DNA of 64,000 nucleotides from NCBI RefSeq assembly GCF_009914755.1, contig NC_060933.1; one strand, given 5' to 3'. The first letter of the stretch is position 1; each line of letters starts with the position of its first letter. Source of the stretch: the human T2T-CHM13v2.0 reference genome, Homo sapiens. Shown here in pieces: positions 5,390-32,909 of the stretch. The notes beneath the pieces were generated by a model that worked only from the letters and a program-made list of their open reading frames with translations, was not told the origin of the DNA and ran no database searches. Position numbers and translations under genes: made by a program.

Positions 5390-6465
<1,076 letters not shown>

Positions 6466-8856: not shown

Positions 8857-9308
8857 TGAGAGGTGAAGGGAGCAGGACTTCCTGGGTTGAGTGGGGACTT
8901 GGAGAACTTTTCTGTAGCTAGCTAGAAGTTTGTAAAATGCACCAATCAGTGCTCCGTAAAAATGCACCAATCAGTGCTCAGTAGCTAGCTAGAGGTTTGT
9001 AAACTGGACCAATCATCACCCTGTAAAATGGACCAATCAGCACTCTGTAAAATGGACCAATCAGCAGGACATGGGCGTGGAAAATAAGGGAATAAAAGCT
9101 CGGCCACCCCAGCCAGTAGTTGTAATCCAGTCCCCTTCCACCCTCTGGACTGTTTGTTCTTTTGCTCCTCACAATAAATTTTGCTGCTGCTCTCTCTTTG
9201 GGTCAGTGCCACCTTTAAGAGTTGTAACACTCACCATGAAGGTCCACGGCTTCATTCTTGAAGTCAGTGAGATCACGAACCCACCCAAAGGAACCAACTC
9301 CGGATGCA
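8857..9308 (+). mobile_element. Solo LTR12-family (ERV9; LTR12F-like) LTR with ATAT target-site duplication
   Basis: TG...CA termini; ATAT at 8853-8856 and 9309-9312; five CCAATCA repeats; GAATAAAA TATA-like box; AATAAA. Confidence 0.85.
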
Positions 9309-10262
9309 ATATCGAGAAATAGATTTGCAACAGCAACAATAAGCAAAAGCTTGGTATAAAAAGATCTGAAGAATTCTTACACATCAATTGGACAAAAGCA
9401 GTCCAACGGACAAAACAGACATTTTAATCTTAAAAGAAGAAAACTCATGGCTCAATAATTGAATAGACATTAAACCTCACTAATAATTGGGGAAATACAA
9501 AATGAAACAAAAGGAGATCCATTCAAACTCATAAGACTAGCAAAGTATTTTAAAGGAATTTAGTATATCAAATGATGTCTGGAATATGAAAAAGCAGAAA
9601 TTCTCATTTTGCTAGTGGAAGAACCACTCAAAAGAGTAGTTTGGCAACATATAGAGGAGTTAGAAACATCTTTTCCTTATGACCAAGAAAACACCTGAAA
9701 AAAAACTTGCACATGTGTACCAAAAGATGTGCACAAAAATGTGTTCATAGCAGCAGTGCTATTCATAAGAGGGAAAAGCCCCAGGGACATGCAAAAATGT
9801 CTAAAAGAAGAAACAGATGAATAAATTATAGTCATATAGTAGAATATTTCAGTAAATAAGAGAAATGATCCAGAACCATGTGTATCAACATGCATACATT
9901 TTACACAAATAAAATGGATAAAAATGTTTCAAAATGAAACATAAGGTGTGTTCCATTTATGTAAATTTTAAAGTAAATTTTAATTGAAATAATGGTATAA
10001 ATATTAAACCGTGCAAAATAATATTTTGCAAACAGAATAAGGCTAAAAAAATACCAAATTCAGAGTAGTGGCAGCTTCTGGGGATTGATGTAGGGGAATG
10101 AGGCTTAGAAAATTAAAAATAGAGATTTCAACGTTCTCTCCAATGGTTTTATGTTCTTTGATAAATGTGTCCGAAATGAAATGTCTAGATTTGTTTTTCT
10201 GTGTAATAAGTACAAAAGTATTTATGACATTATTCTCTGTATCTTTATTCTCTGTATCTCCC

Positions 10263-10361
10263 TATAATTTTTAATTATAATTTAATTAAAAATTAATTAA
10301 TTATAATATAATTTTTAATTATAATTTAATTAAAAATTAATTATAATTTAATTTTTAATTA
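10263..10361. repeat. 99-bp pure A/T tract with tandem palindromic units
   Basis: TAATTTTTAATTA-TAATT-TAATTAAAAATTA occurs twice. Confidence 0.9.
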
Positions 10362-10980
10362 CAGGTGTGAGCCACCGCACCCAGCCCCAAATTATTTTCA
10401 ATGCCACTTTGGTCATATATAAAATTTCCTTATGATTGTGATTCTGTTCCTTAGCCTCTATTCTCTTCTCTTATACAACCACTATCTTTGCTCTATTATC
10501 ACCTATCAAATTTATTATAAACTTAAATCATGCCCTCTCTGTGCTAATTTTTGCCTTGTTCTCCTTCAAAATTGTCTTGGCTATGTTTGGCCCTCTTATC
10601 TTTCATATAAAATTTAAGATATTTTTGGAATTTCCATAAAAATGTCATTATTTTGACAGAAATTGTATTGCATATATGATCATATTTGAAAACCAAAATC
10701 TTTATGTTACTGTCTTCCCATCCATGATCATCTATCATAACTTTATTGTTTTTCTTTTAATACCTCTGACTAAAGTGTTATATATTTTGAACAGTCTAAA
10801 TTTATCATGCCATGTATATAATAGATTGATCATGTGTTTGTTATTCTAAGTATCTTTTTAAAAATCTACTTAATGTAACTTTTTGCTGGTATATAAAAAT
10901 GCAACTGATTATTCCTGGTATGTTTTCCTCTGACTACTTTTAAGATCCTCATTGTCTTTAGTCCTCCCCATCTTATTATG

Positions 10981-11270
10981 TTTTTTTTGAGACTGAGTCT
11001 TGCTTTGTCACCCAGGCTGGGGTGCGGTGGCGTGATTTTGGGTCACTGCAACCTCTGCCTCCCAGGTTCAAGTGATTCTTGTGCCTCAGCCTCCTGAGTA
11101 GCTGGGATTACAGGTGTGTACCACCATGCCTGGCTAATTTTTGTATTTTTAGTAGAGATGGGGTTTCACCATGTTGGCCAGGCTGGTCTCGAGCTCCTAA
11201 TCTCAAGTAATCAGCCTGCCTTGGCCTCCCAAAGTGTGAGATTATGGGCATGAGCCACCATGCCCGGCCT
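10981..11270 (-). mobile_element. AluS
   Basis: reverse consensus. Confidence 0.93.
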
Positions 11271-11943
11271 AAGATGTGTGCTTTTTATTTCACGTTTTTA
11301 ATATGTTTTTGTGCCCTATGTTCTTAATACACTCTGAAGCACTGTCAGTCTTCATCTCACACCTAGAGTTGCTCTGTTTTCCCAGGCTCCTCGTTTTTTC
11401 CCTCAAAGCTACTCCTTTTCCTTTGCTATCTATCATTTATACAATGTCCAGAGTGAGATTTTTAAAATGCAATTCAGATAATATCATGCCCCTGCTTAAA
11501 AGCCTGGGAACGATTTCCTTTGCATTTAGGGTTCTTAAAAAAATCTTTATAGTAGCTGACGAGGCCCAGCCAATGTCCACACCCTTTCTTTGGCATCCTC
11601 CTTTGTTTTGTGATTTAGTCCCACTGACCTCCTTCAAATTCTTTCCAAAAAATTCCGGTCAGGCCATTCACTCTCTGGTCTGTTTGGGCCACTGCTCCTC
11701 ACTCACCGTACCTGCCTCATTTGTCTTTATTCTTCATGTTGGAGCTAAAGTATAACTTTCTTAGGTGACTTTCTCCATGGAACCTACTATTATAATTCAC
11801 TGTCCTTGTTAAACTCCACATAACACCCTGTTTTTCCTTTATAGAACCTACTGCATATTGTGATTATATGTATATTTGTGATTACTAATTTGTTTCTTTC
11901 TCCTTCCTTACCACAAATCTTAAGACAAAAATTAGCCTTTTAA

Positions 11944-12250
11944 GGCCAGGCATAATGGTTCATGCCCGTAATCCCAGCACTTTGGGAGGCTGAGGCGTGC
12001 CGATTATGAGGCCAGGAGATCGAGACCATCCTGGCTAACGCGGTGAAACCCCGTCTCTACTAAAAATACAAAAACATTGGCCGGGTGTGGTGGCAGGCGC
12101 CTGTAGTCCCAGCTACTCAGGAGGCCGAGGCAGGAAAATGGCGTGAACCCAGGAGGCAGAGCTTCCAGTGAGTCGAGACCGTGCCACTGCACTCCAACCT
12201 GGGCGACAGAGCGAGAGTCCGTCTAAAAAAAATTAAATTAAATTAAAATT
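11944..12250 (+). mobile_element. AluY
   Basis: gagatcgagaccatcctggctaac and ggcgtgaaccc diagnostics. Confidence 0.93.
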
Positions 12251-12387
12251 TTTTAAAAATGAAGAAACAACCAGAGAATGGAAGCAAGTATTTGCAAACT
12301 ATGCATCAGACAATGGGTTCATCCACAAAATATATAAAGAATTCAAACTACTCAAAAGAAAAAATACAAACGATCTTATTAAAAAAA

Positions 12388-13330
12388 TCTACCCAAAACC
12401 TTTGTCCCCCACCATCATTTCCCTACACCTTCTTTTCCCGACCACCTTTGACCCCCTCCCTCTGGCCACCCTTTTTCTTCCTCCATCTGCCCCCAAACTT
12501 CTTCACCATTTTTCTCCACCATCATTTCGCAAAGCCTTCTCTACTCTCCTGCTCAACACCCTTTTCCCCATCCACCGACCCAAACCCTTTCCCCACTGTT
12601 TCTTCCCACCGTCTTTTCCTCTTATCCCTGGCCACCCTCTTTTTACCCTTCCCGCATCACACTCTTTTGCTCCTTCATCTAAGCAAAAACATTTTCCCCC
12701 GCCTTTTCCCAAAACCTTCTCCCCACTCCTGCTGCTCACCACCGTCTTTTCCCCCTTCATCCACCCAAAAACTGTGTTCTTCATCGTCTTTCCCCCCGTT
12801 CCTCCTTGCCATTTCTCTTTCCCTTCTCCATCTACCCAAAAACATTTCCCCCATCTTTTCACAAAGCCTTCTCCCCACTGCTGCTCATCTTCCTCTTTCC
12901 CCCCTCCATCCACCCCCCAAAACTTTCCCCACCATCTTTTCAAAGTCTCCCCCCTTTACCACTCGTGCTCTTCTTTCCCCAATCCTGCTTGCCATCCTCT
13001 TTTTTGTCCTGTATCTACCCCAAACTATTTTCCCGTCGTTTTCCCAACCCTCTAATCCCTGCTCCCTCTCCCCACCCTCTTTCCTCCTCCTCGTCACTCT
13101 CTCCCCCCTCCATCTATCGAAACACTTTTTACCCACCGGCTTTCTGCAAAACCTTCCCTCCCTCCCGCTCCCCACCCTGTTTTTCTGCCTCCATGTACCC
13201 AAAAACTTTTTTCCCCACCATCTTTTCGCCGCCATCTTTTTGCAACCCCTTCTCCTGCTATCCTTTTTTTCCCCTTGGCATTAACTACCCTCTTTACCCC
13301 CCTCCAACTATCCCAAAACTGTTTTCCTTC
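12388..13330. repeat. C/T-rich degenerate tandem array, ~11 units of 70-115 bp anchored on CATCTACCCAAAAAC
   Basis: anchor recurs at ~12388, 12484, 12568, 12676, 12758, 12829, 12907, 13012, 13111, 13192, 13308. Confidence 0.75.
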
Positions 13331-13339
13331 TTCTACCTC

Positions 13340-13940
13340 TCCAGCCGCGCCATCTCCATCGCTGCCAACAACCGCAGCGAGGCAAGCCACGCTCCCGCGT
13401 CTCCAGCCTCCAGCATACGGCCAGTGACTCCCGATTCCTAGTCCTCTACGCCGGGATGCGACCACCTCGACACGTCAGTACGGGAACCTGAAAAGACCAG
13501 ATTTCTTTTCAGCATCATTTATATACTGCCGTTATGCCCACGGAGGATCCTGGACTGCATGTTTTGATTGGATGAGAAAAAAACCTCCAGGCTTACTCTG
13601 ATTGGACTTCATGATCATGTTCTGATTGGATGAGAGCAAGTCTTAACAACCAACCACAGCATGAAAATAAAGTCCAATCAAAGTAGGCCTAGAGGTTTTT
13701 CTCTCGTCCAATCAGAACATGTAGTCCAGGAACCGCTTTTGCATAACCTCAGTAGATAAAGCATGCTGAGGTCATGTCAGATCATTTCAAGCTCTTCTGT
13801 GTCGAGCTGAGGAGCTGCTCTGTGCCCGGCTTACAGAACTGGAAGGGGGAGCCACCTTCCGCCTGATGGAGGCTGGAGAACGGATGGAACCTGGATCCCT
13901 GGAGCCTGGGACACTACCTCGCTGCGGTTGGTGGTGGCCA
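13340..13940. promoter_or_regulatory. Palindromic bidirectional promoter-like element, axis 13639/13640
   Basis: ATTGG at 13567, 13601, 13625 mirrored by CCAAT 13708, CCAAT 13674, CCAAC 13650; TATATAAA (- strand, 13525-13518) mirrored by TAGATAAA (+, 13753-13760); CpG-rich flanks. Confidence 0.7.
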
Positions 13941-14149
13941 CAGACCAGTAGGAGGGCGGCTGGCAGCGGGAGCTTCTTCTGCCGGGCTGGAGGACTAGGA
14001 GAAGGGAGAGGGAACGCCACATGCTGGAGGCTGGAGCCTGTGCCACCGTGGCTCACCTCGATGTGGTTGGTGGCAGCTCGCCTTGCTGTGGTTGGTGGTG
14101 ACGTCGGAGACTGCAGCTCGGCCACAGTGGTAGAAATGTGTTGGGGTAG
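13785..14149 (+). ncRNA. Putative first exon of a + strand lncRNA driven by the palindromic promoter
   Basis: starts ~25-30 bp after the TATA-like box; ends at strong donor TAG|GTGAGT (14150); no convincing ORF. Confidence 0.35.
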
Positions 14150-14154
14150 GTGAG

Positions 14155-14800
14155 TGTTCCGGGGCTGCCCTGTACGTCTCTGGGGGCAAGGGTTGGGTGT
14201 CCTATTGGGGCTCACTGCTAGAGGCTACACTGCCTGTGGTAGTGGTCTGGTTGGGGGCACTCTCCGGGGTTGCATTGCTGGTGGTGGGGCAGGTTGACTG
14301 GCTATCTGGGGCTATGCTGCCCGCGGTGGCAGGAGTGGTGGCGGGAGGCAGGTTGTGTACACTAACGTGTACTGCTGGTGGCTGGGGAAGGGTTAGGGGT
14401 GCTATCTTCTGCTGCACTTCCCGCAGCAGGGGGTGGGTTGGGTGGCGTTACCCAGGGCTACAATGCTGGCAGTGGGGGGTGGTTTAGGGGCGTTGTTGGG
14501 TGCTGTACTGCCTGTGACTGGGGGGTGCGCCATCAGGAGCTGAACTGCTGGGGTGGAGTGGGGGGAGGCGGGTTTGGGATGCTATCCAGTGCAGCAACAC
14601 CTGTGGCTGGGTCAGATTGTGGGCACTATCGGATGGTACACTCCCTGCGGTGTGGGGGGAGTGCTTTGGGGGGGAGTATTGGGGTTACATTGCCTGAAAC
14701 TGTAGGGTGTGTTGGATGTGCTATCTGGGGGCTACACTGCTAGTGGCAGGGGGCAGATTAGGGGTGCTACGGGGGCTACACTGCCAGCGGTGCTGGCGAG
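14155..14800. repeat. G/T-rich degenerate repeat with recurring GGGGCTACACTGC motif
   Basis: about 9 variants of ggggctacactgc visible. Confidence 0.6.
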
Positions 14801-15812
14801 CTGAGGAGGTGGCAAAGGCAGCAACAGTAATGGCCTCCTTCTTCCTTCTGGTGGCTTCCAAGTAAGGGATCGTTCTCTTCTTGCCGGACTCCAGACTCTA
14901 GAAGGAGATCTTCTCCTGCTTGAGCTAGATTGCACCGCAGGGCCCCCACACCCACTGTGATTTCCCGTCCCGCCCTCATGCTCTGTGTTGCAGAGACCAC
15001 CTGGGACTACTGGGCAGGGAGTAGTAGGCACCACGGGGGAAGTGGGGGACAGGGCACTGTGGGTGGAGGCGTCAGGAATGGGAACCAGCCCTTGGGTGGG
15101 GAGGGCTGGCTGGGTCTGAGTTTCTCCTACTCAGGCTCCCCGAGGAAGGCAGCCCTGGTGGGCCCAGTAATTCCTGGCCGGGTGGACCTGGCCAGGGGCT
15201 GGTTTCAGTGAAGGCACTCACTCCCACCCCAGGCCCCAGTTCCTGGCCAGCTCTTGCCAGAAGGAGAGGCTGGACTTTGGAAGGTGGGTGTGAGTGCCTT
15301 CAATGAAACTGATCCTTGCCACCCAGTCACCAGTGTGACAAGGTGAGGCTCTAACGGTTCCACTCCCTGAATCCTGTTTTGGGCTTTTCGGGCTTTGCCT
15401 GCCCAGCTGCTCCAAGCCAGGCTGAAGGAGGAGAAGGAGGAGTTGCCTGTGGTACGGTTTAGCCTGCAGATGACGTGGTTCTGCAGCTTGCCTCATGTGG
15501 TTGGTGGTGGTGATGGAGACTGCAGCTCGATCAGAGCGGTAGGAGGACACCCACGGGGGCCAGGTGGTAGGAGCCTGGTAGGGTGGGCTGGTACATTGAG
15601 GGTGACGGTGGTTGTATTGGCATCGGCGCTAGTGGTGGTAGCAGTAGGAAGTCTGGGGGCCAGGAAGGGGGAGTAGGAGCACTGCAGGGCCCATCCCGTT
15701 CTGGGGTGGGGAGGAACCTGTGGGTGCTGTAACGAAGGCCTCGGTGGCAGTGGTGGTGGTACACCTAGGGTCTTACTCTACTTGATTGTAGTTTGTCTGT
15801 GGTTCACATCAC

Positions 15813-17474: not shown

Positions 17475-20454
17475 ATTATTTAACCTTTGTACTAATAAAA
17501 CAACACCTTTCTAAAATTATGTATATCCAATAGACCAATATTATCTATTTTTGTCAGATTACTCTAAACAGCATTGCACAGATACATCCTCTATTATCTA
17601 AACTTAAAATAAGCAGGAATTTTACTTTATTTATGTGATTACTTTTCTTTTTAAGCAAACTTCATGTTACGTCTAGTCCCTAAAAATACTAAAGGCCACA
17701 TTTTGTAAGTGATATATTATTCTCATGATAATGTCTCTTGTTTAACTTAAACATTATTATTTTTTTAATGTATTTTAGATGGAGCCGGACTGTGTAGAAC
17801 AAATAATTACAGAAACAAAGAAAAGTATGTTTCCAAAATTTATTAATTAAATTTAGGTTTATTTTAGTAATAAAGTGTAAATAGCAAATGGCATTCCTTT
17901 TCATTATTGGGTTAGTAGATACTACGTTCAGTATCTTTTCCTTACACACATCTAGTGAAAGATGTGAAAACAAAAACTTTCACAGTGAAGAGTATACTCA
18001 TGTACCATTAATTCATCATGTCCGATAGCTTAAAAAATTCCCAAGAAGTGTATCCATCTCTTTTTTACTGGCTCTACAATTTCTTCACTTTTGCCATCCT
18101 CATGGAACTGTCAGCCAGCACGTTGAAAGGATTCTCTGAAAACAAAGTCATCATCAGGTTCTCTGGGTTTTGGTGGAGTTGAAGACCAACAGACCTCAGA
18201 CTCATTTAGAAATACTTAGTTGAGGAAAAACCCTTCATAAGCAGTGGCTTGACAGGTGACATTTTAAATCTCCTGTCATTTACTGTGCCATTGGCTTACA
18301 TCTGTTCTCAGGAAAAGTTCCAAAATTTTCACCATGAAATAAAAACACCTGTGTCAATGTAATTCTTGTCAGGTTACTCAGCCTTATCTCTCGCCGCTTA
18401 CTGCACTCTGCCCTTTGCTCTAGCACCAAAGTGGGCGGAGTAGAACTCTGTAGGGCTCTTCCTCACCTCAGGCTCTTTGCCTTCGCCTCGTCTCTCTATC
18501 TGGCAAGCTTTTCCTTGTCCTTCAGGTATCAACCTATTTATCTCCTCCACAAAGCCCATGATATTGACACAAAAGTGGGGTAGATGTCCCTTCTGTGTTT
18601 TCCAGTAGTGCCCTGCTTTATACCTGTCATAGTGTCTATGACTCTATACGGACATTGCCTGCCTGTCTGTTGTTTTAGGTTATAGCATATGACTGTTGAG
18701 AGGTGGACCATGCCATCTTCATATTGTAATTCCAGTACTGATTCTAGTGCCTTAGCACGTGGGTGTTGAGTACATGAATAAAGAATGGAAAAGCTGTGAT
18801 ATTTAACCACAATTAGAATTAATGCCATGCGTTAATTATTTAATAGTAATTTTGTATTGTAATTATACGTACATATTTCTCATTCTTTTTAACTCTGATA
18901 ACGTTCTCAACTCTTTAGATTTTAAACTCACACTTAGTTAACTGAAATGTTTTGGGTAAAGAACATAATCCTTTCTTTTTCTTTCCAGCTTTTGCTGTGT
19001 TGGGCACTTGCTCCCATCTGCTTGCTTCTCTAGAATCCACTGGTAAGCCACATCTAATAAAGAGAATATTTAACCATAAAATCTTAAGGAAAAGTTGTGT
19101 GATTTAAAAGATCATAAAACTTTATTACTGGGCTATTGACATGAAATTTTAATTGCTTCTCATAAAATATATAACATCACAATCTTTACTAAAGTAGAAT
19201 ATTTTCATATCATATGTATGATGAACATTTAGTATGGTATTTTAAATGATGTTTTTTAGCCCCCTTAAGTTTTAAGTGGATCTTGCAAATGAACACCAGT
19301 ATTATGGAGTTTGACATACTCAAATTGCCCAAATGTCAGCTGTTTAAAAAGCCAAACAACCAAGTCATCCTTGATACTTTAGTAAAGGTCATCGAAGCCT
19401 TCTTTGCATTTTACAGGTTTTATTACTATATATAGTAGGAGACTTAAAGAGTACCTGCCAGGTTTGTCCATACTAATGTTATGAATTTCTTTTTGTAGTT
19501 CAACCGTATTTTGTGTGGAGATACTTTGAGGCTCTGTAAATATCTGGTTACTCCTAAAAACCCACTAGATTCGGTATTTCATTGATGTCTTGTCTTTGAA
19601 CAAGTATTACTGTGATGGTTGCCAGATGATTATTTTCGTATTCTCTTGTTTGTTCTACATGGAGAAATAAAACCAATAAATAAAGGAGAAGGGAAAGCTC
19701 ATGATTCTGGTGCTCCAATTCCCCAAGATGAGGCCAGTGGTAGACATTTCTTTATGTCTGACTTTATGTCTTTTTGATTTGTCTCTGTTACTCTTGTCAG
19801 CACTTTTTTACTTTCTGGCACAAGATGTTCCAAACTAATCTTGTATTTTCTCTGTTCCAGCCCTAGAATGAGTAATTTTTCTTAGAAGCAGAGTTGGAAC
19901 CACTGAGGAAGCACAGGTGAGCCCTCCCCAGCACACACTCGCTAGTCCCCAACAGAAGAACTGTTGCTGCATCCATTGAGGTACCAAGAAACTAGCAAAG
20001 GGCCTTCTGGCTGTCTGGGGACAGTCCTCATGTGGTCCCTGGCTCAGCCTCAAGGGTTCTGGATTAATTTGTCTGCAGCCTCTGTGCTGTGTCTCTAGAT
20101 CGGGGCTCTGTGGGAAGGGCCCTGGGAGACCCAGCAGCACAGGGTGTCTCGTCTGCCAAATGTCCCTCCCTTCTCCCACTCTGACACTCAGGAATAGGGT
20201 AGATGGCATGTCCAGGCAGTGCCAGGCCACCTCATTGTCTCCTTTGAGATGGGCCCAGAGGGCCTTGGGGGGCGAGTGTGAAGCTGGGTACCTGGAGCCT
20301 GAGGCTGACTGTCCCTTCCTATGTCTTGGAGGAGAGGCCTTGGGGCCCAAGAAACCCCCCCGGGCCTGATCTCTGGGCACACATGCAGGGAGGGAGGGTC
20401 TGTGGGCTGATTGGGGCATTGTAATGAGACGTTGAGCACCACTGCACAGGGGCC

Positions 20455-21050
20455 TCGTCAGTGGATCATGGTCAGAGATGACCTAGCCATCAGGACCTGG
20501 TCAGTTGGGACCAGATCAGCAGGGACCTGGCTAGGGGGTGGCCTCCTCAGTGAAGGCCTCACCAGTAGGGATCTGGTGACCTAGTCATTGGAAGCCTAGT
20601 CAGTGGGGACCTGGTCAGTGGTGGCCTTATTAGTGGGGCCTGATCGGTTGGAACATAAACAATAAAAAACTGGCCGGTGGGGTCTATTCAGTATATTAGG
20701 GGTCTGGTCAGTGTGGGGCCTTAGTGGCTCGGAGCCTGGTCAGTGAGGGCCTGGTCAGAGGGGGCTCGGTCAGCTGGGGACTGATCCATGGAGAATTGTT
20801 CAGTGGGGGTGAGGTGAGGGGCAACCTGGTAAATTGTGGTCTTGTCAGTGGGAACCCAGTCAGTGGGGTCTGGTCCGTGAGGCCTATTAATAGGGACCTC
20901 TTCCTGGTTATGGAGACATGGCCAGTGGGGACTTGGTCAGTGGGACCTGGTCAATGGAGGAGTGGTCATTAGGGGCCTTGTCAGTGGGGACCTGGTTTGG
21001 GGGGCGCCTGGTCAGTAGGAACCTGGCCAGTTGGCCGCTGTGTGACCTTA
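20455..21050. repeat. Degenerate ~15-bp minisatellite, consensus CCTGGTCAGTGGGGA (block 1)
   Basis: dozens of ggtcagtgg variants. Confidence 0.85.
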
Positions 21051-21549
21051 GGCAGGGGGTTTGTGGAGCCTCCTTGCTTCCATGTGTAGGAAGGTGAGTC
21101 AGGGCACCCTGGAGCGTTGCTGGAAAGAGAATGTGAGAAGATGTGTTGAATTCAGCACTGCTTGGCAGACCTCCAACTTTACACACAACCTGGGTTCCAC
21201 CTAGAGAGGGTACCAGCCCGCTCTACTCTGCTCGGCGCCCCTCCTCTGTCTGCATCCCCAGTACCACACTCGGTGGGGAGGGCAGAGATTGGGGAGCACC
21301 TGTGGATTCTCTAATCCTGGTCCTGGGGCCCTGGTGGTGATAGTGATGAGGACCTGGGTGCACCTGTGAGTGGAGCAGCTAGGCCAGGCCAGAGAAGCAA
21401 GACAAATACACCCATATGCACATAGACACATGCATGCATAAACACATTGCATGCACACATGTGAGTTCAGGGGATAGAGGACACTGATTCTGGGCCCTCT
21501 TGACCCAAGCAGGCTCCCGTTGTGGTGTGTTGTGTCACCCCACGATGTC

Positions 21550-21685
21550 ACTGTTGCTGAGCCCCCATTGCCTATGCGTTGTGGAGCAGTTAGAGACACA
21601 CAGCAGTGTCTGTGAGTGGCTCTGCATGAAGGGCCATTTTCTAGGTGAGAGGCACATCTCAGCACAGCTCACTGATCAGACTTAG
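21550..21685 (+). pseudogene. TBC1D3/USP6-family-like non-coding first exon with intact donor; homology appears to extend into promoter (~21300) and intron (~21850)
   Basis: gagcagttagagacacacagcagtgtctgtgagtggctctg...tgagaggcac...gatcagacttag|gtgagtggaacctgctctcttc...gggcagctactgagggtaaaccctgagcactcaccagg resembles TBC1D3 exon 1/intron 1 as I recall it; not search-verified. Confidence 0.55.
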
Positions 21686-22019
21686 GTGAGTGGAACCTGC
21701 TCTCTTCTCTTCCTCCTGGCTTAGGGACAGTCGCTATCAGGTGGATGGTTTTGGCCTCTGGGCAGCTACTGAGGGTAAACCCTGAGCACTCACCAGGTGC
21801 CTGTTCTGTGTTGACAGTCATCTGATTCATCCTGGTAGCAATTCCATTCTGCATCTCTTCTGGACACCCACAGGACCACCAGAACAACCCCATCATGGCC
21901 CTGTCACCAGGCCCAGTTTGGCTCCATGATAACCAAGACGCAGGTCCAGAGACAACCGCCCTGCTTGATGCCTGCATCTGACCTCCCTTGGTGGGTAGTG
22001 ATGAGCACAACATGGAAGA

Positions 22020-25000
22020 AGCCAGGGCAGCTTGTGGCCAGCTGCCCTACAGCCCCAGATGGCTGGGGACTAGGATTCCAAAAGGATGATTTTGGAGCTG
22101 TAGGATTGAATGACTGGCCTGCTGGGTTTTGGATGTTCGTGTATCCTATGAGTCCCATCGGTGTTTGTTTTTCTTTCAGGCAATTTTTCTTCTATTGGCT
22201 GGGAATGCTTACCCATTGCCTGTACAATCATTGTACCTTGGAAGTAGTTAACTTGCTTTATAATTCAGAGGCTCATGGGCAGAAGGGACTGTATCCTTGT
22301 CCCAGATAAAACTTTGGGCTTTGGACATTTGCTGGAATGAGTTAAGATTTGGGGGACTGTAGGGAAGTCATCATTGTATTTTGCAACGTGAGAAAGACAT
22401 ACGAGATTTGCATGGGCAGGGACAGAATAATATGACTTGGCTCTGTGTCCCACTGCTGTGAAATTGTAACGGGAAATGTTAAAGGTGGTGGGGGCTGGTG
22501 GAAGGTGATTTAATCATGGTGGAGAGTGGAGGTTGGAAGGTGGGGGTGGTGGGGAGAATTGGGGGGAATTATGGTGGGGTTGGGGGTGAAAGGCAGGGGT
22601 GGGGGTGATCCTTCACAAGTAATTAAACACCATCTCCTTAATGCTGTCCTTCTGATAGTTCTCTTCATAATTTCGTAGCTGTGAGATTGAATACTGGTCT
22701 GCTGGGTTTTGGATGTGCATTGGGCCTGTGGTCCCATTTGTGTTATTTTTCTGGGAAATTTCTTCCCTTTGGATTAAGAAAGCTTACCCAATGCCTGTAC
22801 CATCATTGTACCTTGAAAGAAAAGAACTCCATTTTAACTTCAGGGACTCATAGGTAGAAGATACTGTATAGCCTTGTCTCGGATGAGACTTTGAACTTCT
22901 TATAGTTGAGTTGATGCTGGAATGAGTTAAGGCTTTTGGAAACTTTTGAAAAGGCATGATTGTGTTTTACCCTGTGAGAAGGACATGAGATTCGGAAGGG
23001 TCAAGGTCGGAATAATATGGTTTGGCTGTGTTTTGCTAGAAAAACTCATGTGGAATTGTAATCCCGAATTTTGGTTGTGAAGCCTGGTGGGAGGTGATTT
23101 AATCATGGATGGGAGGTGGGTGGGGGTGTAAGGAGAAAGGGGTGGGGAGGAGTACGCTGGCTGTAGGGTGGTGGGAGGGTGGTGGGTAGTAGGAAGGGGG
23201 AGTAGCCTGCTGCACAGGTAGAGGCTCATGGAAAACCTCTACTAGGGCAGTGCACCTGTGGCTTTGCTGCTCTCATGGCTGGGCTGGTGTTGAGTGCCTG
23301 TAGCTTTTCCATGCAGAGGGTGGGAGCTGTTGGTGGGTCTATGACTGGGGTCTGGAGGATGATGGTATCCTGTGTGGGAGCTCCAAGCCCATATTTTCCT
23401 TCCGCACTTCCCTAGGAGAGGTTTTCCCAGAGGCTCTGCCTCTGCATCAGGCTTCTGCCTGGAAACAGTGGGAGTTGGGGGTGGGGGGCGAATCCTTCAT
23501 CAATGGTTAAGCACCATCTTTTTGATGCTGAGCTTGTGATAGTGAGTTCCCATGAGATCTGGTTGTATAATAGGGTGTGGCACCTCTTTCCTCTCTCTGT
23601 CTTGCTCCTACTCCTGCCACATGAATCATCTCATTGCCCCTTGACATTCTGATATGACTGGGTGGCTTCCTGAGTCCTCCCAGATTCAGAAGCCACTATG
23701 TTTCCTTACAGCCTGCAGAATCATGAGATTCTTTATGATCATAGAGAAAATTAGTACTGGAAAGTGGATGTATGAAATGTCTTCAAGGCCTTTTCCCTGT
23801 TGTCTTGGCAATCAGCACTCAGCTTCTTTTCATTCAAGTATCTGAAGCCTTGAATTTTCCCCCTGAAAATGGACTTGCCTTCCTTTACCACATTGCCAGG
23901 CTGTGACAAAGATAGGTGATAAAGTAGAAGCAGGTTCAGAAGGGGGTAGCAGACAGAGGTTGGGAGAGTTTGAAGGGCTTTGAAGACAGGAAAATGAGGA
24001 AAAGTTTGGATCTTTGTAGAGAATTGTTAAATACTTGTGATCAGAAGGCTGACAGGAAAATGGTCAGTGAAAGCCAGACTTAGAAGGTCTCAGATAAAAA
24101 TGAGGAACTTATTGGGAACAGAAGCCAAGGTTACCTTTGTTTTGCTGTAGCAAGGAATGTGGTGGCACGGTGACCCTGCCCTGGAGATCTGTGAAACTTT
24201 AAACTTGAGGGTGATGACTTAGTACATATTTGGTGGAATGAACTTCTAGGAAGCAAAGCTCAAGAGGTGTCCTGTCTGCATTGAACAGCCTGTGCTCTGA
24301 TGTGTGACTGAGGAAATGACCTCTGGATGGGACTTCCATTAAACAAGTCCCAACTCTTACATTAAATAAGAAACAGAACTCAGAAGTTTGGAAAATTTGC
24401 AGCCTGGCCAAGTGGTCAAAAAGAAAATCTGATTTTCAGGGAGAAAATTCAGGAAGGCTTCAGAAATTTGCATAAAAAGGAGCCCAGTGCTAATAGCCAA
24501 GACAATAGGGAAGAGGCCTTGAAGGCATTTCATAGAACTTTGCAGCAGCCCTTCCTGTCACAGGCCCTGGGGCCTAGGAGAGAAGAATGGTTTCCTGGGC
24601 CAGTCCCATGACCCCCCTCTATGTGCAGCCTCAGGGCACTGCTGCCTGCATCCCTGCAGCTCCAGCTCCAGCCATGGCTGAAAATGCACAGATGCAGCTT
24701 GGGTCACTGCTTCAGAGAGTGCAGGCTAGAAGCCTTGGTAACTTCCTCATATTGGTAAGCCACTGGGTGGACGGATCTTGAGACTAGAGGCTTGGAAGCC
24801 TCTCTGTAGACTTTGGAAGATGTATGGAAATGCCTGGGTGACCAGAAAAAAGCATCCCAAAAAGGCAGAGCCTCATAAGAAACCTCTACTAGGGCAGTGC
24901 AGAAGGAAAATACGGGGTTGGAGCCCCCACACTGGAGGCCACCATCATGCAGACCCCAGATTCGTAGACCGACCGATAGCTTGTACCATCAGTCGGGAAA

Positions 25001-26700
25001 AACTACAGGCACTCAACACCCGCCCAGCCCATGAGTGCAGCCGTGGGGCATAAACCCTGCAAAACCAAAGGTGCAGAGCAGCCCAGGGCCTTCAGAGCCC
25101 AGCCCTCACGTCCCTGTGCCCTGGATGTGGGACAAGGTTTCAGAAAGGATGATTTCGGAACTGTAGGATTGAATGACTAGCCTTCTGGGTTTGGAGTTTC
25201 ATGGGGCCTGTAAGTCCTGTGTTTTGTTCTTTCTGGCAGAATTCTTCCTTTCGGCTGAGAATGCTTACGTAACATTGCCTGCACAAGCATTGTACCTTGG
25301 AAGTAGTTAACTTGCTTTATTGTTCAGAGGCTCATGCACCTAAGGGACTGTAGCCTTGTGTCAGATGAGACTTTAAGCTTTGGACATTTGTACAAATGCT
25401 GGAATGATATAAGATTTGGAGGGGCTGTAGAGAAGGCATCATTGTATTTTGCAATGTGAGAAGGACATGAGATTTGGGAGCCAGGGACAGAATAATAAAG
25501 TTAAAGGTGGGGCCTGGTGGAGGGTGATTTAATCATGGTGGAGAGGGGGGGTTGGAAGGTGGGGGTAGGGAGAATGAGGGGATTATGGTGGGGGTGAGGG
25601 GTGAAAAGTGGTGGTCGGGGGTGGATCCTTCACAAATGATTAAACACCACCTCCTTATTGCTGTGCTTATGATAGTGAGTTTTCTTCATGATTTTGGAGC
25701 TGTGAGATTGAATGGATACTGGCCTCCTGGGTTTTGGACTTGCATTGGGCCTGTGGTCCTATTTGTGTTTTTTTCCTGGGAAATTTCTTCCCTTTCGATT
25801 GAGAAAGCTTATCCAGTGCCTTTACCATCATTGTACCCTGAAAGAAAAGAACATCCTTTTAAATTCAGGGACTCATAGGCAAAAGGGACTGTAGACTTGT
25901 CTCAGATGAGATGTTGAACTTTTTACTTTTGAGTTAATGCTGGAATGAGTTAAGACATTTGGAAGGAAACTTTTGAAAAGGCATGAATGTATTTTGCTCT
26001 GTGAGAAGGACATGAGATTCTGGGGTATCAGGGTCAGAATAATATGGTTTGGCTGTGTTTATTTACAAAACTCATGTGAATTGTACTTCTTAATGTTGGA
26101 GGTGGGACCTGGTGGGAGGTGATTTAATCATGGCAAGAGGGGGTTGGGGTTGGAAGGAAAAGGGGTGGGTAGGGTGGAGAGTAGGTTGGCAGTAGGGTGG
26201 TGGGAGGGTGGGGGGTAGTAGGAAGAGGGAGTAGTCTGCTGTAGAGGCAGAGGTTTGTGGAAAACCTCTACTAGGACAGTGAACCTGTGGCTTTGCAGGC
26301 TTCAGCCCCCATGGCTGCTCCCATGGGCTGGGCTGGTGTGGAGTGCCTGTAGCCTTTCCATACTGAGGGTGCGAGCTGTTGGTGGGCTTATGAATCTGGG
26401 GTCTGGAGGATGGTGGCCTCCTGTGTGGGAGCTCCAAGCCCATATTTTCCTTCTGCACTGCCATAGTGGAAGTTTCCCAAGAGGCTCTGCCTCTGCAGGA
26501 GGCTTCTGCCTGGCAACAGTGGGTGGTGGTATGGGCGGTGGTTCCTTCACCAATGGTTAATCTTCTTGATGCTGATCTCCTGATAGTGGGTTCTCTTGAG
26601 ATCTGGTTGTATAACAGGATGTAGCACCTCCTTCCTCTCTCTGTCTTGCTCCTACTCCTGCCATATGAAATATCTCATTGTCGCTTGGTCTTCTGGTATA
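22020..26700 (+). mobile_element. Rearranged ERVL-MaLR (MST/THE1-like) internal and LTR pieces with nested duplications and G-rich inserts
   Basis: gagaaggacatgagatt, aataatatggtttggctgtg, gtctcagatgagacttt and aatgaggaacttattgggaac motifs, some repeated up to 4 times. Confidence 0.8.
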
Positions 26701-26709
26701 GTTAGGAGG

Positions 26710-27580
26710 GCCCTGATCAGTGTGGGCCTCGTCAGTGGACCTAGTCAGTTGGGACTTGGTCAGTGAGGCCTGTTTATTGGGGGCATGGTCAGCAGGGGTC
26801 TGCTTAGAGAGGGTCTCATTAGGGGGATCTAGTAGTGGGCGTCTCGGTGAGTGGGGACCTAGTGGCAGCCACTTGTTTGGTGTCTGGTCAGTGTAAAACT
26901 AGGCTGCAGGACTTTGTCAGTGGAGACCTGGTCAGCTGGGGCTTAGTGGTGGCCTTGTCAGCATGAGCTGGGTCACTGGTGACCAGGTCAATGGGTGCTA
27001 TTCAGTGGAGGCCTGGTCACATGGGACCTAGTCAGCAGGACCTGGTGGCCATGTCCTCATCAGTGAGGCCCTTGTCAGTGGGGCCCTGATCAGGGCAGCC
27101 TGGTCAGTGGAACCTAATCAGTGGGGGCCTGTTCAGAGAGAGCGTGGTCAGTGGTGGCTTTTGTAGCACTGGTCTGTGGGTGACCTGGTCAGCAGGGATC
27201 TGAGCAGTGGGTGCCCATTGAGTGGGGCCTACTCACTAGGGTCATAGTCAGAAGTATCTGGTCACCTTGGGCCTGCTTAATAGGGGCCTGGTCAGTGGCA
27301 GCCTGTTCCCCGGAGGCTTAGTCAGTAGAACCTCATCTGTGGGGCCAGGCAATGGGGTCATGATCGGTGGAACCTGATCAATGAGGCCTTGTCAGTGAGG
27401 ACCTGGTCAGTGAGGCCCTGGTGTGTAAGGTCGTGGTCAGTCAGTAGGGTCCTGGTCACTGTGGGCCTGGCAGCAGGGCCTGGTTAGTGGGGCATGGTCA
27501 TGGGGTTCTAATCAGTGAGGGTGTGGTCAGGGAGGACCTGATGTGCGGGATCTGGTCAGCAGGGACCTGGTGCGGGGGCT
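26710..27580. repeat. Degenerate ~15-bp minisatellite CCTGGTCAGTGGGG (block 2)
   Basis: same unit as block 1, ~870 bp. Confidence 0.85.
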
Positions 27581-27829
27581 GCTGAGCACTGCTGGGAGAT
27601 GCCAGGTGCAATGCACGTTATCACAGGCCCTATGGACAGCTCGGATGGGCCAGTGGTGCCCAAAAGCCCAGTCAAAAGTGGACAAAGCAGGTGTTTGGAT
27701 GGACCTGGGAGATCTTGCTCAGAGATTTTGACAGGACAAAGGCAAAGGAAGGGCCAGAGTGGCCGGTGAGATGGTCACAGTCTATGGGCTGCACGGGATG
27801 GAGGAAGCCAGGGAACAGACAGCGTGGGC

Positions 27830-28430
27830 AGCTGGGGTGCAGGGAGAGGCAGGTACATGCTGGGAGGTCAGATCCTGTCAGTGCTGTGGGGGCGTCAGGT
27901 GGGGTGGGCTCCAGTTGCACCCTCAGTGCACTGGGCAGGTCTCAGCCCAGGCTCCCTGCACCCTGGCCGAGTGATGCGGTCACTCCCTGGGGGACTTCCG
28001 TCGGGCCCCAGCCACCCACCCTGGGCAGTGCTGTCCCATCTCAGGACTGGACTTTCTCAGATCCTGCAGAGGGCACAGCCTCCAGCCCAGGAGGGGCAGC
28101 CCCATGGTGCAGCCCGAGATCTCCATGGACCTGGAGCATCCCCTGCCAGCCCTGCGCTCCCTCTTCTTCCAGGTCCCGCGTTTCCAGTGTCAGCCAGCAG
28201 GGAGGCCCCGTCCTCCCTTCCCTATGTGTCTCCTGGGCAGAAATTTGTGGTGGATTGGGACAGGGATGGTGCTTCCCTCAGGCCCGTTTAGGGAGGGGAC
28301 TGACTCCCAGCCTGGCACAGGTCCTCAGCTCTGCCTTGGTTGCCTTAGAGTGAGAAGGATCATTCCTGAAGGTAAAGGTAAGAGACTGTCCGTGCTGTGT
28401 GGGAGGCTGGTCTAGAGATGGAGGACGTAA
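27830..28430 (+). pseudogene. TBC1D3/TBC1D26/TBC1D28-family-like intron with degenerate micro-exon 28351-28377
   Basis: cctcagctctgccttggttgccttagag|TGAGAAGGA...GGTAAAG|gtaagag resembles the recalled cctcagctctgcctgggttgccttacag|TGAGACGGAG...GAAG|gtaagag exon; upstream intron colinear from memory. Confidence 0.55.
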
Positions 28431-28685
28431 CAGTTCCTCCCAGTCTGTCAGGCCTGGGCAGCACCGTCCTGTCTCAGGACTCAGAAAGTCCAGTCCTGCG
28501 ATGGGACGGTGCTGCCCAGGGTGGGTGGCCGGGGCCTGACAGCAGTCCCCCAGGGAGTGACCACATCACCCAGGTGGGGTCCAGAGAGCCTGGCCTGAGA
28601 CCTGCCCAGTGCACTGAGGGTGTACCTGGAGCCCACTCCACCTGATACCCCCACGGCCCTTGCAGGCTCTGACTTCCTAGCAGGG
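27857..28685. repeat. ~215-bp inverted repeat pair (27857-28070 / 28470-28685)
   Basis: + ORF 27691 and - ORF 28481..28693 share TLSALGRSQ...TPWGT...PPTLGS.VPSQDWTF. Confidence 0.9.
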
Positions 28686-29384
28686 TCATTCACTCATCTG
28701 GGGCAGGGGAGTTCACCGCCCTCAGCAGCCTCCATGAAGGCCGTCCCCCCAGCCCCCCGCCCCCCACCTACACATGCACAGAGCTGGAAGGTCTATCCCC
28801 ACCACCACTCCAGAGTGCGAGAAAGGGAGAGGCAGTGGGATGGGGACTCTGTGCTTCACATGTTGGCTGAGCTAAGAGGGCCCATCTCCATCCCAGCCTT
28901 TGTCAGGGAGAGAAGGGGCTTTCCAGGGCAGACATTATCTATTCTTCACCAGGATACCCAGGGTCAAGACTTCTCCCACTTCTGAACTCAGGGTCCAGCA
29001 CTCTCCCACCCAAACTTCCACTATTTTGTGACACATGAAGTTATTCGGCTGTGGCACTTCCTGGAGCCTGCATGGAGATGTTCAGCCCTGTGACATCTCT
29101 GCAAACCTTCTCCCTATAGTTGCATAAAGTTTGAGGTGGACAGTAAGTAGTGGAAAGATGGGTTGAACCTTATTTCAGAGTGGGATCTTCATAGGTTTTT
29201 CTCATCTTGTTTTTAGAATTTTTTGTTGTTTGTGTAAAGATGGTATTACGGAAACATAAGGTTCAGTGAAGGAACTCAGGATGAAGGTGGGCTTACAGCA
29301 CCGCTGTCAGCCTCCCTCCATGTCCTGTTGCTTCTAGAAACCAAGCCCACACCAAGCACAGCACAAATAAAAGCCATCACCCTC

Positions 29385-29410
29385 TTATGAATAAAAAACC
29401 GTATATATTG
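29385..29410 (-). terminator. Candidate SPATA31C2 polyadenylation region with variant signal AATATA (29409-29404)
   Basis: no minus-strand AATAAA near the stop; AATATA followed by U/GU-rich downstream sequence. Confidence 0.45.
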
Positions 29411-29573
29411 TGGAATATTAAATGTTCTGCGTGTACTAACATGAGAGAAAATACTTTTCCTCTACATAGAGTGAATTTTTTCTTGGTGACTTGTTTTTCT
29501 CTAGGGAAGGCTAAAAAGGAATTTGTGACTGACCAAATTAGATACCTCCCTGAAAAAGACAGTGCCTTGGTCA

Positions 29574-32909
<3,336 letters not shown>

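What the first reader, a model, noticed from the sequence alone, without database searches (positions are those of the whole stretch)
19870..28430. Apparent fossil TBC1D3/USP6-family gene inside the SPATA31 duplicon, convergent with SPATA31C2
Two separate blocks in the right order and strand resemble my recollection of TBC1D3 genomic sequence: promoter, non-coding exon 1 with intact GTGAGT donor and intron start (~21300-21850), and a ~550-bp intron ending in a shortened micro-exon (28351-28377, GTAAGA donor). I cannot find the intervening coding exons; a MaLR element and minisatellite lie there. Established: TBC1D3 (chr17) and SPATA31 (chr9) are each regarded as separate primate core duplicons. 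Inference: the two cores share ancestral sequence, and the retained promoter/exon 1 may drive an antisense-oriented lncRNA. This rests on memory and needs a search.
Basis: partly seen in the sequence, partly recalled or inferred. Interest (0 to 1): 0.85.

Follow-up and report, generated by a model that had tools for sequence, protein, structure and literature searches.

The report
Dead TBC1D3-like gene stub beside SPATA31C2
Two short stretches next to SPATA31C2 are the decayed front end of an old TBC1D3-like gene, carried along in a neighbouring, widely copied block of DNA rather than in the SPATA31 block, and it looks like an ordinary gene relic.

Summary
Window 21257-21807 and 27820-28359 align colinearly, on the same strand, to a chr17 TBC1D3 copy (70% and 73.6% identity, E 9e-69 and 9e-88). 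The first block is the region 1.3-1.9 kb upstream of the ATG exon and keeps a conserved GT donor at 21685/21686. The second is the last ~550 bp of the intron before the 40-nt micro-exon, which survives here as 27 nt (28351-28377).

No TBC1D3 coding exon is present in the window.

- **Not in the SPATA31 duplicon.** SPATA31 homology starts at 28679. The relic-bearing duplicon ends at 28682.
- **Host duplicon.** It has at least 36 copies on chr9 and on pericentromeric and acrocentric regions. In 28 of the 35 other copies the relic lies 17-27 kb downstream of a CCDC144C-domain (ANKRD26-like) exon.
- **Separate lineage.** In a tree the relic clade sits across a 100/99 branch from TBC1D3/USP6.
- **Promoter use untested.** The annotated lncRNA starts at 13731, in a third duplicon.

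Verdict: an unannotated, non-coding pseudogene relic of low to moderate interest.

The parts
20450..21040 (.). Minisatellite A, unit about 15 nt (CCTGGTCAGTGGGGA-like), upstream of block 1
   Evidence: TRF rows 20574-21031. The same array type lies upstream of block 1 in the C19:16.15 Mb relative. It is absent from the chr17 TBC1D3 and C17:31.5 Mb loci fetched.
20929..21815 (+). Block 1: upstream region, putative non-coding exon 1 and the start of intron 1 of a TBC1D3-like gene. TBC1D3 proper aligns from 21257; C19 and C6 align from 20929 and 21007.
   Evidence: In TBC1D3 the matching stretch lies 1.3-1.9 kb upstream of the ATG exon. That TBC1D3 exon 2 holds the ATG comes from a passage in PMC12871316. 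The exon-1 label itself is inferred.
21684..21691 (+). Putative exon-1 splice donor, AG|GTGAGT, with the cut between 21685 and 21686
   Evidence: GT kept in TBC1D3, the C17:31.5 Mb locus, C1 and C6, and lost in C19; of 9 duplicon copies, 8 keep GT, 1 (L008) has lost it, and 2 (L002, L003) have changed the -1 base.
21816..21817 (+). AG acceptor used by predicted LOC124902203 isoforms whose exon starts at 21818; it lies in relic intron-1 sequence
   Evidence: Hub gene table (exons 21818-22947 and 21818-23093), and the alignment, where similarity to C19 runs to about 21850.
22063..22064 (.). Breakpoint. All 8 non-SPATA31C copies of block 1 that were fetched stop matching the window here.
   Evidence: L003-L010 all end at 22063/22064 although each has 1500 more bases.
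22066..26625 (.). High-copy interspersed repeat with an internal duplication: 22066-23581 resembles 25129-26625 at about 79-80%
   Evidence: 10,726 first-look candidates, 2 scored. No Pfam domain. The MaLR name is recalled, not tested.
26690..27590 (.). Minisatellite B, the same unit, abutting block 2. This junction is peculiar to the duplicon.
   Evidence: No such array precedes block 2 in the C19, C17:15.64, C16 or C7 relatives.
27665..28350 (+). Block 2: the 3' part of the intron before the micro-exon (TBC1D3 intron 3 if the ATG exon is exon 2). TBC1D3 aligns from 27820; C19, C17:15.64, C16 and C7 align from 27665.
28351..28377 (+). Micro-exon relic of 27 nt, with AG acceptor and GTAAGA donor kept. 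Relatives have 40 nt, encoding ETELPPLTAREAK in TBC1D3.
   Evidence: A 7-nt gap is shared by all 10 duplicon copies aligned, and a further 6 nt are missing in the window only.
28378..28445 (+). Start of the following intron, still alignable to C19 and C1
28480..28682 (-). Inverted copy of 27858-28060 (203 nt, 85% complementary, 419 nt between the arms)
   Evidence: It lies next to block 2 in 38 of the 40 scored places that match block 2, the window included, and is absent from C19, C1 and TBC1D3.
28679..28682 (.). Junction between the relic-bearing duplicon (ends at 28682) and the SPATA31 duplicon (starts at 28679)

Best explanation
The two blocks are the non-functional remains of the 5' end of an old TBC1D3/TBC1D26-like gene. 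What survives is the upstream region, a putative non-coding exon 1 with the start of intron 1, the last ~690 bp of the intron before the micro-exon, the micro-exon itself and ~70 bp of the next intron. The ATG exon, the following exon and every TBC-domain exon are gone.

The loss happened before the relic's host segment was copied, because all copies share it. That host is a duplicon linked to CCDC144C-domain (ANKRD26-like) exons, with at least 36 copies on chr9 and on pericentromeric and acrocentric regions.

In the SPATA31C lineage two further events occurred. An internal rearrangement at 22064 brought the blocks to about 5.5 kb apart, against 17.6 kb or more elsewhere. A breakpoint at 28679-28682 joined this duplicon tail-to-tail to the 3' end of SPATA31.

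Shown: the homology, the anatomy, the copy distribution, the boundaries and the tree position. Inferred: the exon-1/promoter label, the order of events, the ages and the lack of function.
For: **Homology.** Colinear same-strand matches to TBC1D3 (E 9e-69 and 9e-88) and to the C17:31.5 Mb, C19 and C1 relatives; C6 matched colinearly for block 1 only. The splice boundaries are aligned.

**It is gene-locus DNA, not a repeat.** In relatives the blocks are contiguous with coding exons over many kb: TBC1D3 against C1 at 78-88%, C19 at 66-68%, C6 at 65-71%.

**Missing exons.** The TBC1D3 stretch between the blocks (ATG exon plus the next exon) found no place on chr9 or in any duplicon copy, with 32 of 32 candidates scored. 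A tblastx of TBC1D3 locus 7300-15000 and a word-7 blastn of locus 6050-8405 against the whole window gave only block 2, its inverted arm and noise. Of 66 ORFs of 60 aa or more, none has a Pfam domain over cut-off.

**Decay.**
- A 7-nt gap in the micro-exon is shared by 10 of 10 copies, with 6 more nt lost here.
- The micro-exon donor is lost in 5 of the 10 copies.
- The exon-1 GT is lost in 1 of 9 copies (all).

**Host duplicon.** 36 places match block 1 at 83-100% (40 of 70 candidates scored). In 28 of the 35 others a CCDC144C exon lies 17-27 kb upstream on the same strand (81 of 847 candidates scored).

**Boundaries.** 22064 and 28682; SPATA31 homology starts at 28679.

**Tree.** The window plus 9 copies form one clade (100/100), separated from TBC1D3/USP6/C17:31.5/C1/C17:42.18 by a 100/99 branch. 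K80 distances are given.
Against: - No transcript, chromatin or cross-species data could be consulted, so 'non-functional' rests on sequence decay only.
- The window copy keeps both donors and the micro-exon acceptor.
- Predicted lncRNA isoforms use an acceptor at 21818 inside relic sequence.
- The exon-1 assignment in TBC1D3 was not checked against an annotation.
- No repeat library (Dfam/RepeatMasker) was available, so parts of the blocks could still be ancient repeats.
- The genome searches scored only the best candidates: 40 of 70, 40 of 95 and 81 of 847.
- 7 of the 35 other block-1 copies had no CCDC144C exon listed nearby.
- The tree is unrooted and uses about 840 columns of one block.
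Confidence: 0.85

Rival explanations
1. One reading: the relic is part of the SPATA31 core duplicon, so the SPATA31 (chr9) and TBC1D3 (chr17) cores share ancestral sequence.
For: The relic lies about 1 kb from the SPATA31C2 3' end. The same holds at SPATA31C1 (C9:100.08 Mb) and at C9:94.2 Mb.
Against: - 2 of 2 SPATA31A-type flanks inspected match the window only from 28679 onward.
- Four SPATA31 3' places at 93% identity (C9:39.37, 41.24, 43.74 and 78.76 Mb) have no block-2 hit within about 0.7 Mb.
- At least 24 block-1 copies lie on other chromosomes, whereas all 9 matches to the SPATA31 3' query, with every candidate scored, lie on chr9.
- The relic clade is not nested in the chr17 core clade.
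Confidence: 0.04
2. The relic has been put to use. Its old promoter and exon 1, or its splice sites, contribute to the lncRNA LOC124902203 that runs convergent to SPATA31C2, or it acts as a regulatory element.
For: The hub table lists predicted isoform exons starting at 21818 and 21874. The acceptor at 21816-21817 lies in relic intron-1 sequence. The window copy keeps GTGAGT at 21686 and AG...GTAAGA around the micro-exon.
Against: - The lncRNA model starts at 13731, in a third, unrelated duplicon.
- No annotated exon ends at 21685 or matches 28351-28377.
- Splice sites vary among copies as expected for neutral decay.
- No Rfam family was found in 19500-29400.
- Bona fide TBC1D3 paralogs showed no accessible proximal promoter in neurospheres, according to a passage in PMC12871316.
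Confidence: 0.1
3. The resemblance is due to chance or to a shared interspersed repeat, not to gene ancestry.
For: No repeat library could be run. Identity is only 65-76%.
Against: - E-values run from 1e-46 to 1e-114 in small search spaces.
- Two blocks are colinear in 4 independent loci.
- Copy numbers are low: 70, 95 and 32 candidates, against 10,726 for the true repeat between the blocks.
- In relatives the blocks are contiguous with coding exons.
Confidence: 0.01

Closest known systems
TBC1D3 gene copies in the two chr17q12 clusters (for example C17:37266001-37286000), and USP6's TBC1D3-derived 5' part (C17:5.02-5.03 Mb; the name is assigned by position and recall)
   Same: The upstream/exon-1 region and the intron plus micro-exon align colinearly at 70-74% locally. 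The exon-1 donor and the micro-exon acceptor and donor sit at homologous positions.
   Different: There is no ATG exon, no following exon and no TBC domain, and the micro-exon is 27 nt rather than 40 nt. The relic is on the other side of a 100/99 branch, with K80 0.486-0.492. It keeps 27665-27820, which aligns to C19, C1, C17:15.64, C16 and C7 but not to TBC1D3.
chr17p TBC-like locus at C17:15.64 Mb, with sisters at 16.88 and 18.59 Mb (these positions fit TBC1D26/27/28 by recall; not tested)
   Same: It is the nearest relative outside the duplicon: 76% identity and K80 0.295 over 586 sites of block 2. It is on the same side of the tree.
   Different: That locus keeps the inter-block sequence and later gene parts. 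Only block 2 of it was fetched here.
Old TBC1D3-like pseudogene loci at C19:16.15 Mb, C1:245.94 Mb and C6:29.39 Mb
   Same: C19 and C1 carry both blocks in order, about 2.6-3.1 kb apart; C6 has a colinear match to block 1 only. C19 also shares the upstream minisatellite.
   Different: They keep the stretch between the blocks, including ATG-exon and micro-exon homologues. These carry in-frame stops in C1 and C19, and they are single loci, not duplicon-borne.
CCDC144C-domain (ANKRD26-like) pericentromeric duplicon; the names ANKRD18A/B, ANKRD19P and ANKRD20A for these places are recalled
   Same: This is the host. The relic sits 17-27 kb downstream, on the same strand, of the CCDC144C exon in 28 of the 35 other copies.
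   Different: The relic is unrelated in sequence to the ankyrin gene. No CCDC144C exon was listed near the two SPATA31C copies, and the expected place lies just outside the window.
SPATA31 core duplicon (SPATA31A/C)
   Same: It is the immediate neighbour, arranged tail-to-tail.
   Different: It is a separate module, with the boundary at 28679-28682.

Membership tests
TBC1D3/USP6-N-terminal/TBC1D26-type gene family (as a relic of a member) | Colinear, same-strand nucleotide homology to two or more separate parts of family loci | tested here: met
   two blocks against TBC1D3, the C17:31.5 Mb locus, C19 and C1 (C6 matches block 1 only); block 2 against USP6-like, C17:15.64, C17:42.18, C19:19.88, C16 and C7.
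TBC1D3/USP6-N-terminal/TBC1D26-type gene family (as a relic of a member) | Homologous exon-intron boundaries | tested here: met
   the exon-1 donor and the micro-exon acceptor and donor align. The exon-1 identity in TBC1D3 is inferred.
TBC1D3/USP6-N-terminal/TBC1D26-type gene family (as a working gene) | RabGAP-TBC domain (PF00566) coding exons | tested here: not met
   no hit in the window; 0 of 66 ORFs; tblastx finds only intron-derived block 2.
TBC1D3/USP6-N-terminal/TBC1D26-type gene family (as a working gene) | ATG exon and the following coding exon | tested here: not met
   (32 of 32 candidates scored, none on chr9 or in duplicon copies).
chr17 TBC1D3 core duplicon clade | Nested within, or sister to, TBC1D3/USP6 copies in a tree | tested here: not met
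   separated by a 100/99 branch. K80 0.486 to TBC1D3 against 0.295 to C17:15.64.
SPATA31 core duplicon | Present in the homologous flank of other SPATA31 copies | tested here: not met
   0 of 2 SPATA31A-type flanks; only 3 of the 8 places matching the SPATA31 3' query over 1 kb or more adjoin block 2.
CCDC144C-domain (ANKRD26-like) pericentromeric duplicon | Constant order, strand and spacing relative to the CCDC144C exon across copies | tested here: met
   28 of the 35 other copies, 17-27 kb, same strand. 7 copies have none listed, and 81 of 847 candidates were scored.
CCDC144C-domain (ANKRD26-like) pericentromeric duplicon | CCDC144C exon upstream of this particular copy | not tested
   The expected place (about 4-5 kb before the window start) was not fetched.
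MaLR retroelement (the inter-block filler) | Match to a MaLR consensus | not testable with these tools
   Only the high copy number is shown. The name is recalled.

The most novel reading that the evidence does not exclude
The TBC1D3/TBC1D26-type gene lineage may be much older and more widely scattered than the 'simian-only, chromosome-17' family described in print.

- Intron-bearing relics at 64-79% identity lie on chromosomes 1, 6, 7, 16 and 19, with a weak hit on 11.
- Two separate relics ride on pericentromeric duplicons: this 5' stub, with at least 36 copies, and a mid-gene piece that includes a TBC exon, with at least 16 copies.

On this reading TBC1D3-like DNA was repeatedly caught up in duplication-prone regions long before the chr17 burst. 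These relics would then be candidates for the ancestral locus that Guitart et al. could not identify.
Probability: 0.3. Interest if true: 0.5.

Novelty: new member of a known kind. Interest (0 to 1): 0.3.

Why it matters
For annotation, it explains two low-copy, non-repeat stretches beside SPATA31C1/C2. It also fixes the duplicon boundary at 28679-28682, which shows the SPATA31C arrangement to be a mosaic of at least three modules.

For TBC1D3 evolution, the relic and its relatives on other chromosomes give dated outgroup sequences. The family's origin is stated in print to be unresolved (passage in PMC11610581). K80 values of 0.3-0.5 suggest splits older than simians, but that is inference from assumed neutral rates.

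It does not support a link between the two core duplicons, so it changes little about how cores are understood.

Tried and rejected
**Requests that failed**
I went on with smaller fetches.
- a term-syntax error, corrected.
- Paulding 2003 and Frittoli 2008 are not held, so their account of TBC1D3's origin is known to me only through the review PMC6920530.

**Searches that found nothing**
- (Pfam on 66 ORFs): only a sub-threshold Extensin_1 match caused by the minisatellite.
- (Rfam): nothing.
- (tblastx and word-7 blastn for hidden coding exons): nothing beyond block 2. A chain of 21-29-bit fragments on the opposite strand was judged to be noise.
- (tblastn of four TBC1D3 exon peptides): no hit in the window at E below 0.1.
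- I looked for the minisatellite upstream of block 2 in relatives and did not find it. The junction of minisatellite B with block 2 is therefore derived, but how it arose (tandem copy plus deletion?) stays open.

**Literature**
- (TBC1D3 with SPATA31, with ANKRD20A, and with TBC1D26 plus USP6NL): listings and passages only. None describes a TBC1D3-like relic on chr9.
- 'Chromosome 9' occurs 0 times in the main text of PMC11610581. Its supplements (Table S6, Fig. S6) were not seen and may list such loci.

Full report
**1. What was checked**

The window's own assembly (G000, 24 contigs; the window is C9:100254001-100318000) could be searched.

A Pfam RabGAP-TBC search of the assembly located TBC-domain exons on C17 at these places:
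- nine places at 37.1-37.4 and 38.9-39.05 Mb;
- 5.03 Mb;
- 18.35 and 20.49 Mb;
- 31.50 Mb;
- 60.9 and 63.1 Mb.

I fetched one clustered copy (L026+L027, C17:37266001-37286000) and the 31.5 Mb locus (L021+L022).

Stop-to-stop frames of L026 show four 5' coding exons:
- an ATG exon (MDVVEVAGSWW...) near 7345-7415;
- a second coding exon near 7586-7670;
- a micro-exon (ETELPPLTAREAK) near 8957-8996;
- a further exon from about 9476.

I recognise these as the TBC1D3 N-terminus from memory. Two printed statements fit this reading:
- TBC1D3 is described as having two clusters (PMC6920530, passage).
- Its ORF is described as beginning at the start of exon 2 (PMC12871316, figure-legend passage).

The gene names I give to the other C17 places (USP6, TBC1D26/27/28, TBC1D29P) are assigned by position and recall only.

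**2.

Blastn of window 19000-30000 against the TBC1D3 copy gave exactly two direct matches and one inverted match:
- 21257-21807 to locus 5464-6049 (70.0%, E 9e-69);
- 27820-28359 to locus 8406-8962 (73.6%, E 9e-88);
- 28480-28682 as an inverted copy of locus 8444-8647.

The same ordered pair was found in the C17:31.5 Mb locus and in loci at C19:16.15 Mb and C1:245.94 Mb. The C6:29.39 Mb locus matched colinearly for block 1 only; its single block-2 match is short and inverted.

Block 1 lies 1.3-1.9 kb upstream of the TBC1D3 ATG exon. Its AG|GTGAGT at 21685/21686 aligns with a GT donor in 4 of the 5 relatives aligned.

Block 2 is the last ~550 bp of the intron before the micro-exon. The window's micro-exon is exactly 28351-28377, with an AG acceptor and a GTAAGA donor. 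It is 27 nt, against 40 nt in relatives.

These stretches are low-copy. First-look candidates numbered 70 for block 1 and 95 for block 2. The sequence between them (22070-25120) had 10,726.

TRF confirms the 15-nt minisatellite on the 5' side of each block.

**3. What is missing**

The TBC1D3 stretch between the blocks holds the rest of intron 1, the ATG exon, the next exon and the first half of the next intron. With 32 of 32 candidates scored, it matched many C17 places and C1, C19 (two places), C6, C7 (two places), C16 and C11. It matched nothing on chr9 or in any copy of the host duplicon.

Three further tests found no hidden coding exon:
- tblastx of TBC1D3 locus 7300-15000 and a word-7 blastn of locus 6050-8405, each against all 64 kb, found only block 2 and its inverted arm;
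- 0 of 66 ORFs of 60 aa or more in 19800-28900 has a Pfam domain over cut-off;
- Rfam found nothing.

**4. The relic is not in the SPATA31 duplicon**

Window 28700-30700 (the SPATA31C2 3' end) has 9 matches, all candidates scored and all on chr9; the weakest is a 169-base match at 69%. Of the 8 that cover 1 kb or more, only three adjoin a block-2 copy: the window, C9:100.08 Mb and C9:94.2 Mb.

I fetched the flanks of two 93%-identical SPATA31A-type copies. In both, homology to the window begins at 28679, with only Alu matches upstream.

Conversely, all 7 non-SPATA31C copies of block 2 that were fetched stop matching at 28682. All 8 such copies of block 1 stop at 22063/22064.

So 28679-28682 is a junction of two modules.

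A third module holds the lncRNA pair's start: window 13600-15700 has a quite different set of paralogous places.

**5. The host duplicon**

Block 1 has 36 places at 83-100% identity, with 40 of 70 candidates scored:
- 12 on chr9;
- 24 on C1, C2, C3, C4, C8, C13, C14, C15, C18, C20, C21 and C22.

A Pfam CCDC144C search (81 of 847 candidates scored) puts a CCDC144C exon 17-27 kb upstream, on the same strand, in 28 of the 35 other copies. Seven copies had none listed, and these include the SPATA31C1 copy.

In the other copies the two blocks are 17.6 to about 82 kb apart. In the two SPATA31C copies they are about 5.5 kb apart (coordinates).

In C9:33.6 Mb and C9:109.3 Mb the TBC1D3-like intron continues beyond the inverted arm, up to TBC1D3 locus 9479, which is the edge of the next exon. 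In the window that part is cut off by the SPATA31 junction.

The inverted arm is 203 nt and 85% complementary. It accompanies block 2 in 38 of the 40 scored places, the window included, and is absent from the C19, C1 and TBC1D3 loci.

**6. Relationship to TBC1D3**

The tree was built on block 2 with 20 rows, 842 columns, IQ-TREE and GTR+F+G4, and is unrooted. All rows that I had extracted were used.
- The window plus 9 duplicon copies form one clade (100/100).
- TBC1D3, the USP6-like copy, C17:31.5, C1 and C17:42.18 lie across a 100/99 branch.
- The window's side also holds C17:15.64, both C19 loci, C16 and C7.

K80 distances from the window:

| Compared with | K80 |
|---|---|
| SPATA31C1 copy | 0.018 |
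| C9:94.2 Mb | 0.058 |
| Seven other duplicon copies | 0.088-0.098 |
| C17:15.64 Mb | 0.295 |
| C19:16.15 Mb | 0.352 |
| C1:245.94 Mb | 0.376 |
| TBC1D3 | 0.486 |

The window also keeps 27665-27820, which aligns to C19, C1, C17:15.64, C16 and C7 but not to TBC1D3.

Hence the relic is an old, separate branch of a wider TBC1D3/TBC1D26-type family. It is not a piece of the chr17 core.

With neutral rates of about 1-2.2e-9 per site per year (my general knowledge), K of 0.3-0.5 would mean splits well before simians. This is inference, and GC-rich sequence may evolve faster.

**7. Decay pattern**

- All 10 duplicon copies aligned share a 7-nt gap in the micro-exon. The window lost 6 more nt, and the SPATA31C1 copy lost 3.
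- The micro-exon donor GT is gone in 5 of the 10 copies.
- The exon-1 GT is gone in 1 of 9 copies, and the -1 base is changed in 2.
- Relatives C1, C19 and C17:31.5 carry in-frame stops in the homologous exons.

This is what neutral decay looks like.

**8. Function**

The most likely reading is that it has none: a relic carried passively.

The hub table starts LOC124902203 at 13731. No annotated exon ends at 21685 or equals the micro-exon. Predicted isoform exons do start at 21818, whose AG lies in relic intron sequence.

**9. Literature**

I saw passages only, in PMC5338094, PMC6920530, PMC11610581 and PMC12871316.
- TBC1D3 and SPATA31 are treated as separate cores.
- PMC11610581 states that no TBC1D3 ortholog was found in mouse lemur and that no consistent ancestral paralog was identified.
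- The phrase 'chromosome 9' does not occur in its main text. Its supplements were not seen.
- Searches gave no paper describing this relic.

**10. Verdict**

Its evolutionary reading overreached. This is an unannotated pseudogene stub in a mosaic of duplicons.

Noticed in passing
Outside the window: C9:40.145, 41.96, 47.83 and 78.01 Mb; C2:132.21; C13:9.38 and 12.75; C14:2.85, 6.66 and 13.53; C15:4.74; C18:15.15; C21:5.64 and 9.76; C22:5.75 and 16.48 Mb: A second TBC1D3-like relic family covers the middle of the gene, including a TBC-domain exon with an 82-98 aa open frame. It is 72-73% identical to TBC1D3 and sits in pericentromeric and acrocentric duplicons. It is not adjacent to the 5' stub: on chr9 it lies about 160 kb upstream of it in two copies.
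   Followed up: partly
Outside the window: C1:245.93-245.95, C19:16.15, C19:19.88, C6:29.39, C7:56.77, C7:25.33, C16:38.97 and C11:0.575 Mb: Intron-bearing TBC1D3-like loci at 64-84% identity lie on other chromosomes. C1 and C19 carry in-frame stops in the 5' exons. No non-chr17 locus came up in the PMC11610581 passages I saw, and 'chromosome 9' is absent from its main text.
   Followed up: partly
window 13600-15700: The start region of the divergent lncRNA pair LOC124902202/LOC124902203 belongs to a third duplicon, with paralogues on C15, C17, C7, C20, C14, C21, C13 and C2. It has a ~280-nt inverted repeat at its own edge.
   Followed up: no
window 22066-23581 and 25129-26625: An old internal duplication at about 79-80% identity lies inside the high-copy repeat filler. 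It is found only in the two SPATA31C copies.
   Followed up: no
window 19500-30000 versus C9:100076369-100093481: The whole stretch has an inverted twin about 200 kb away, at the SPATA31C1 side. It is 98-100% identical (K80 0.018 in block 2), so this is a recent inverted duplication.
   Followed up: partly
C9:105053796-105062797 (outside the window): Another chr9 place has block 1 (90-94%) and a partial SPATA31 3' match (92%) about 7 kb apart on the same strand. No block 2 was listed between them, which suggests a further deletion derivative of the SPATA31C-type junction.
   Followed up: no
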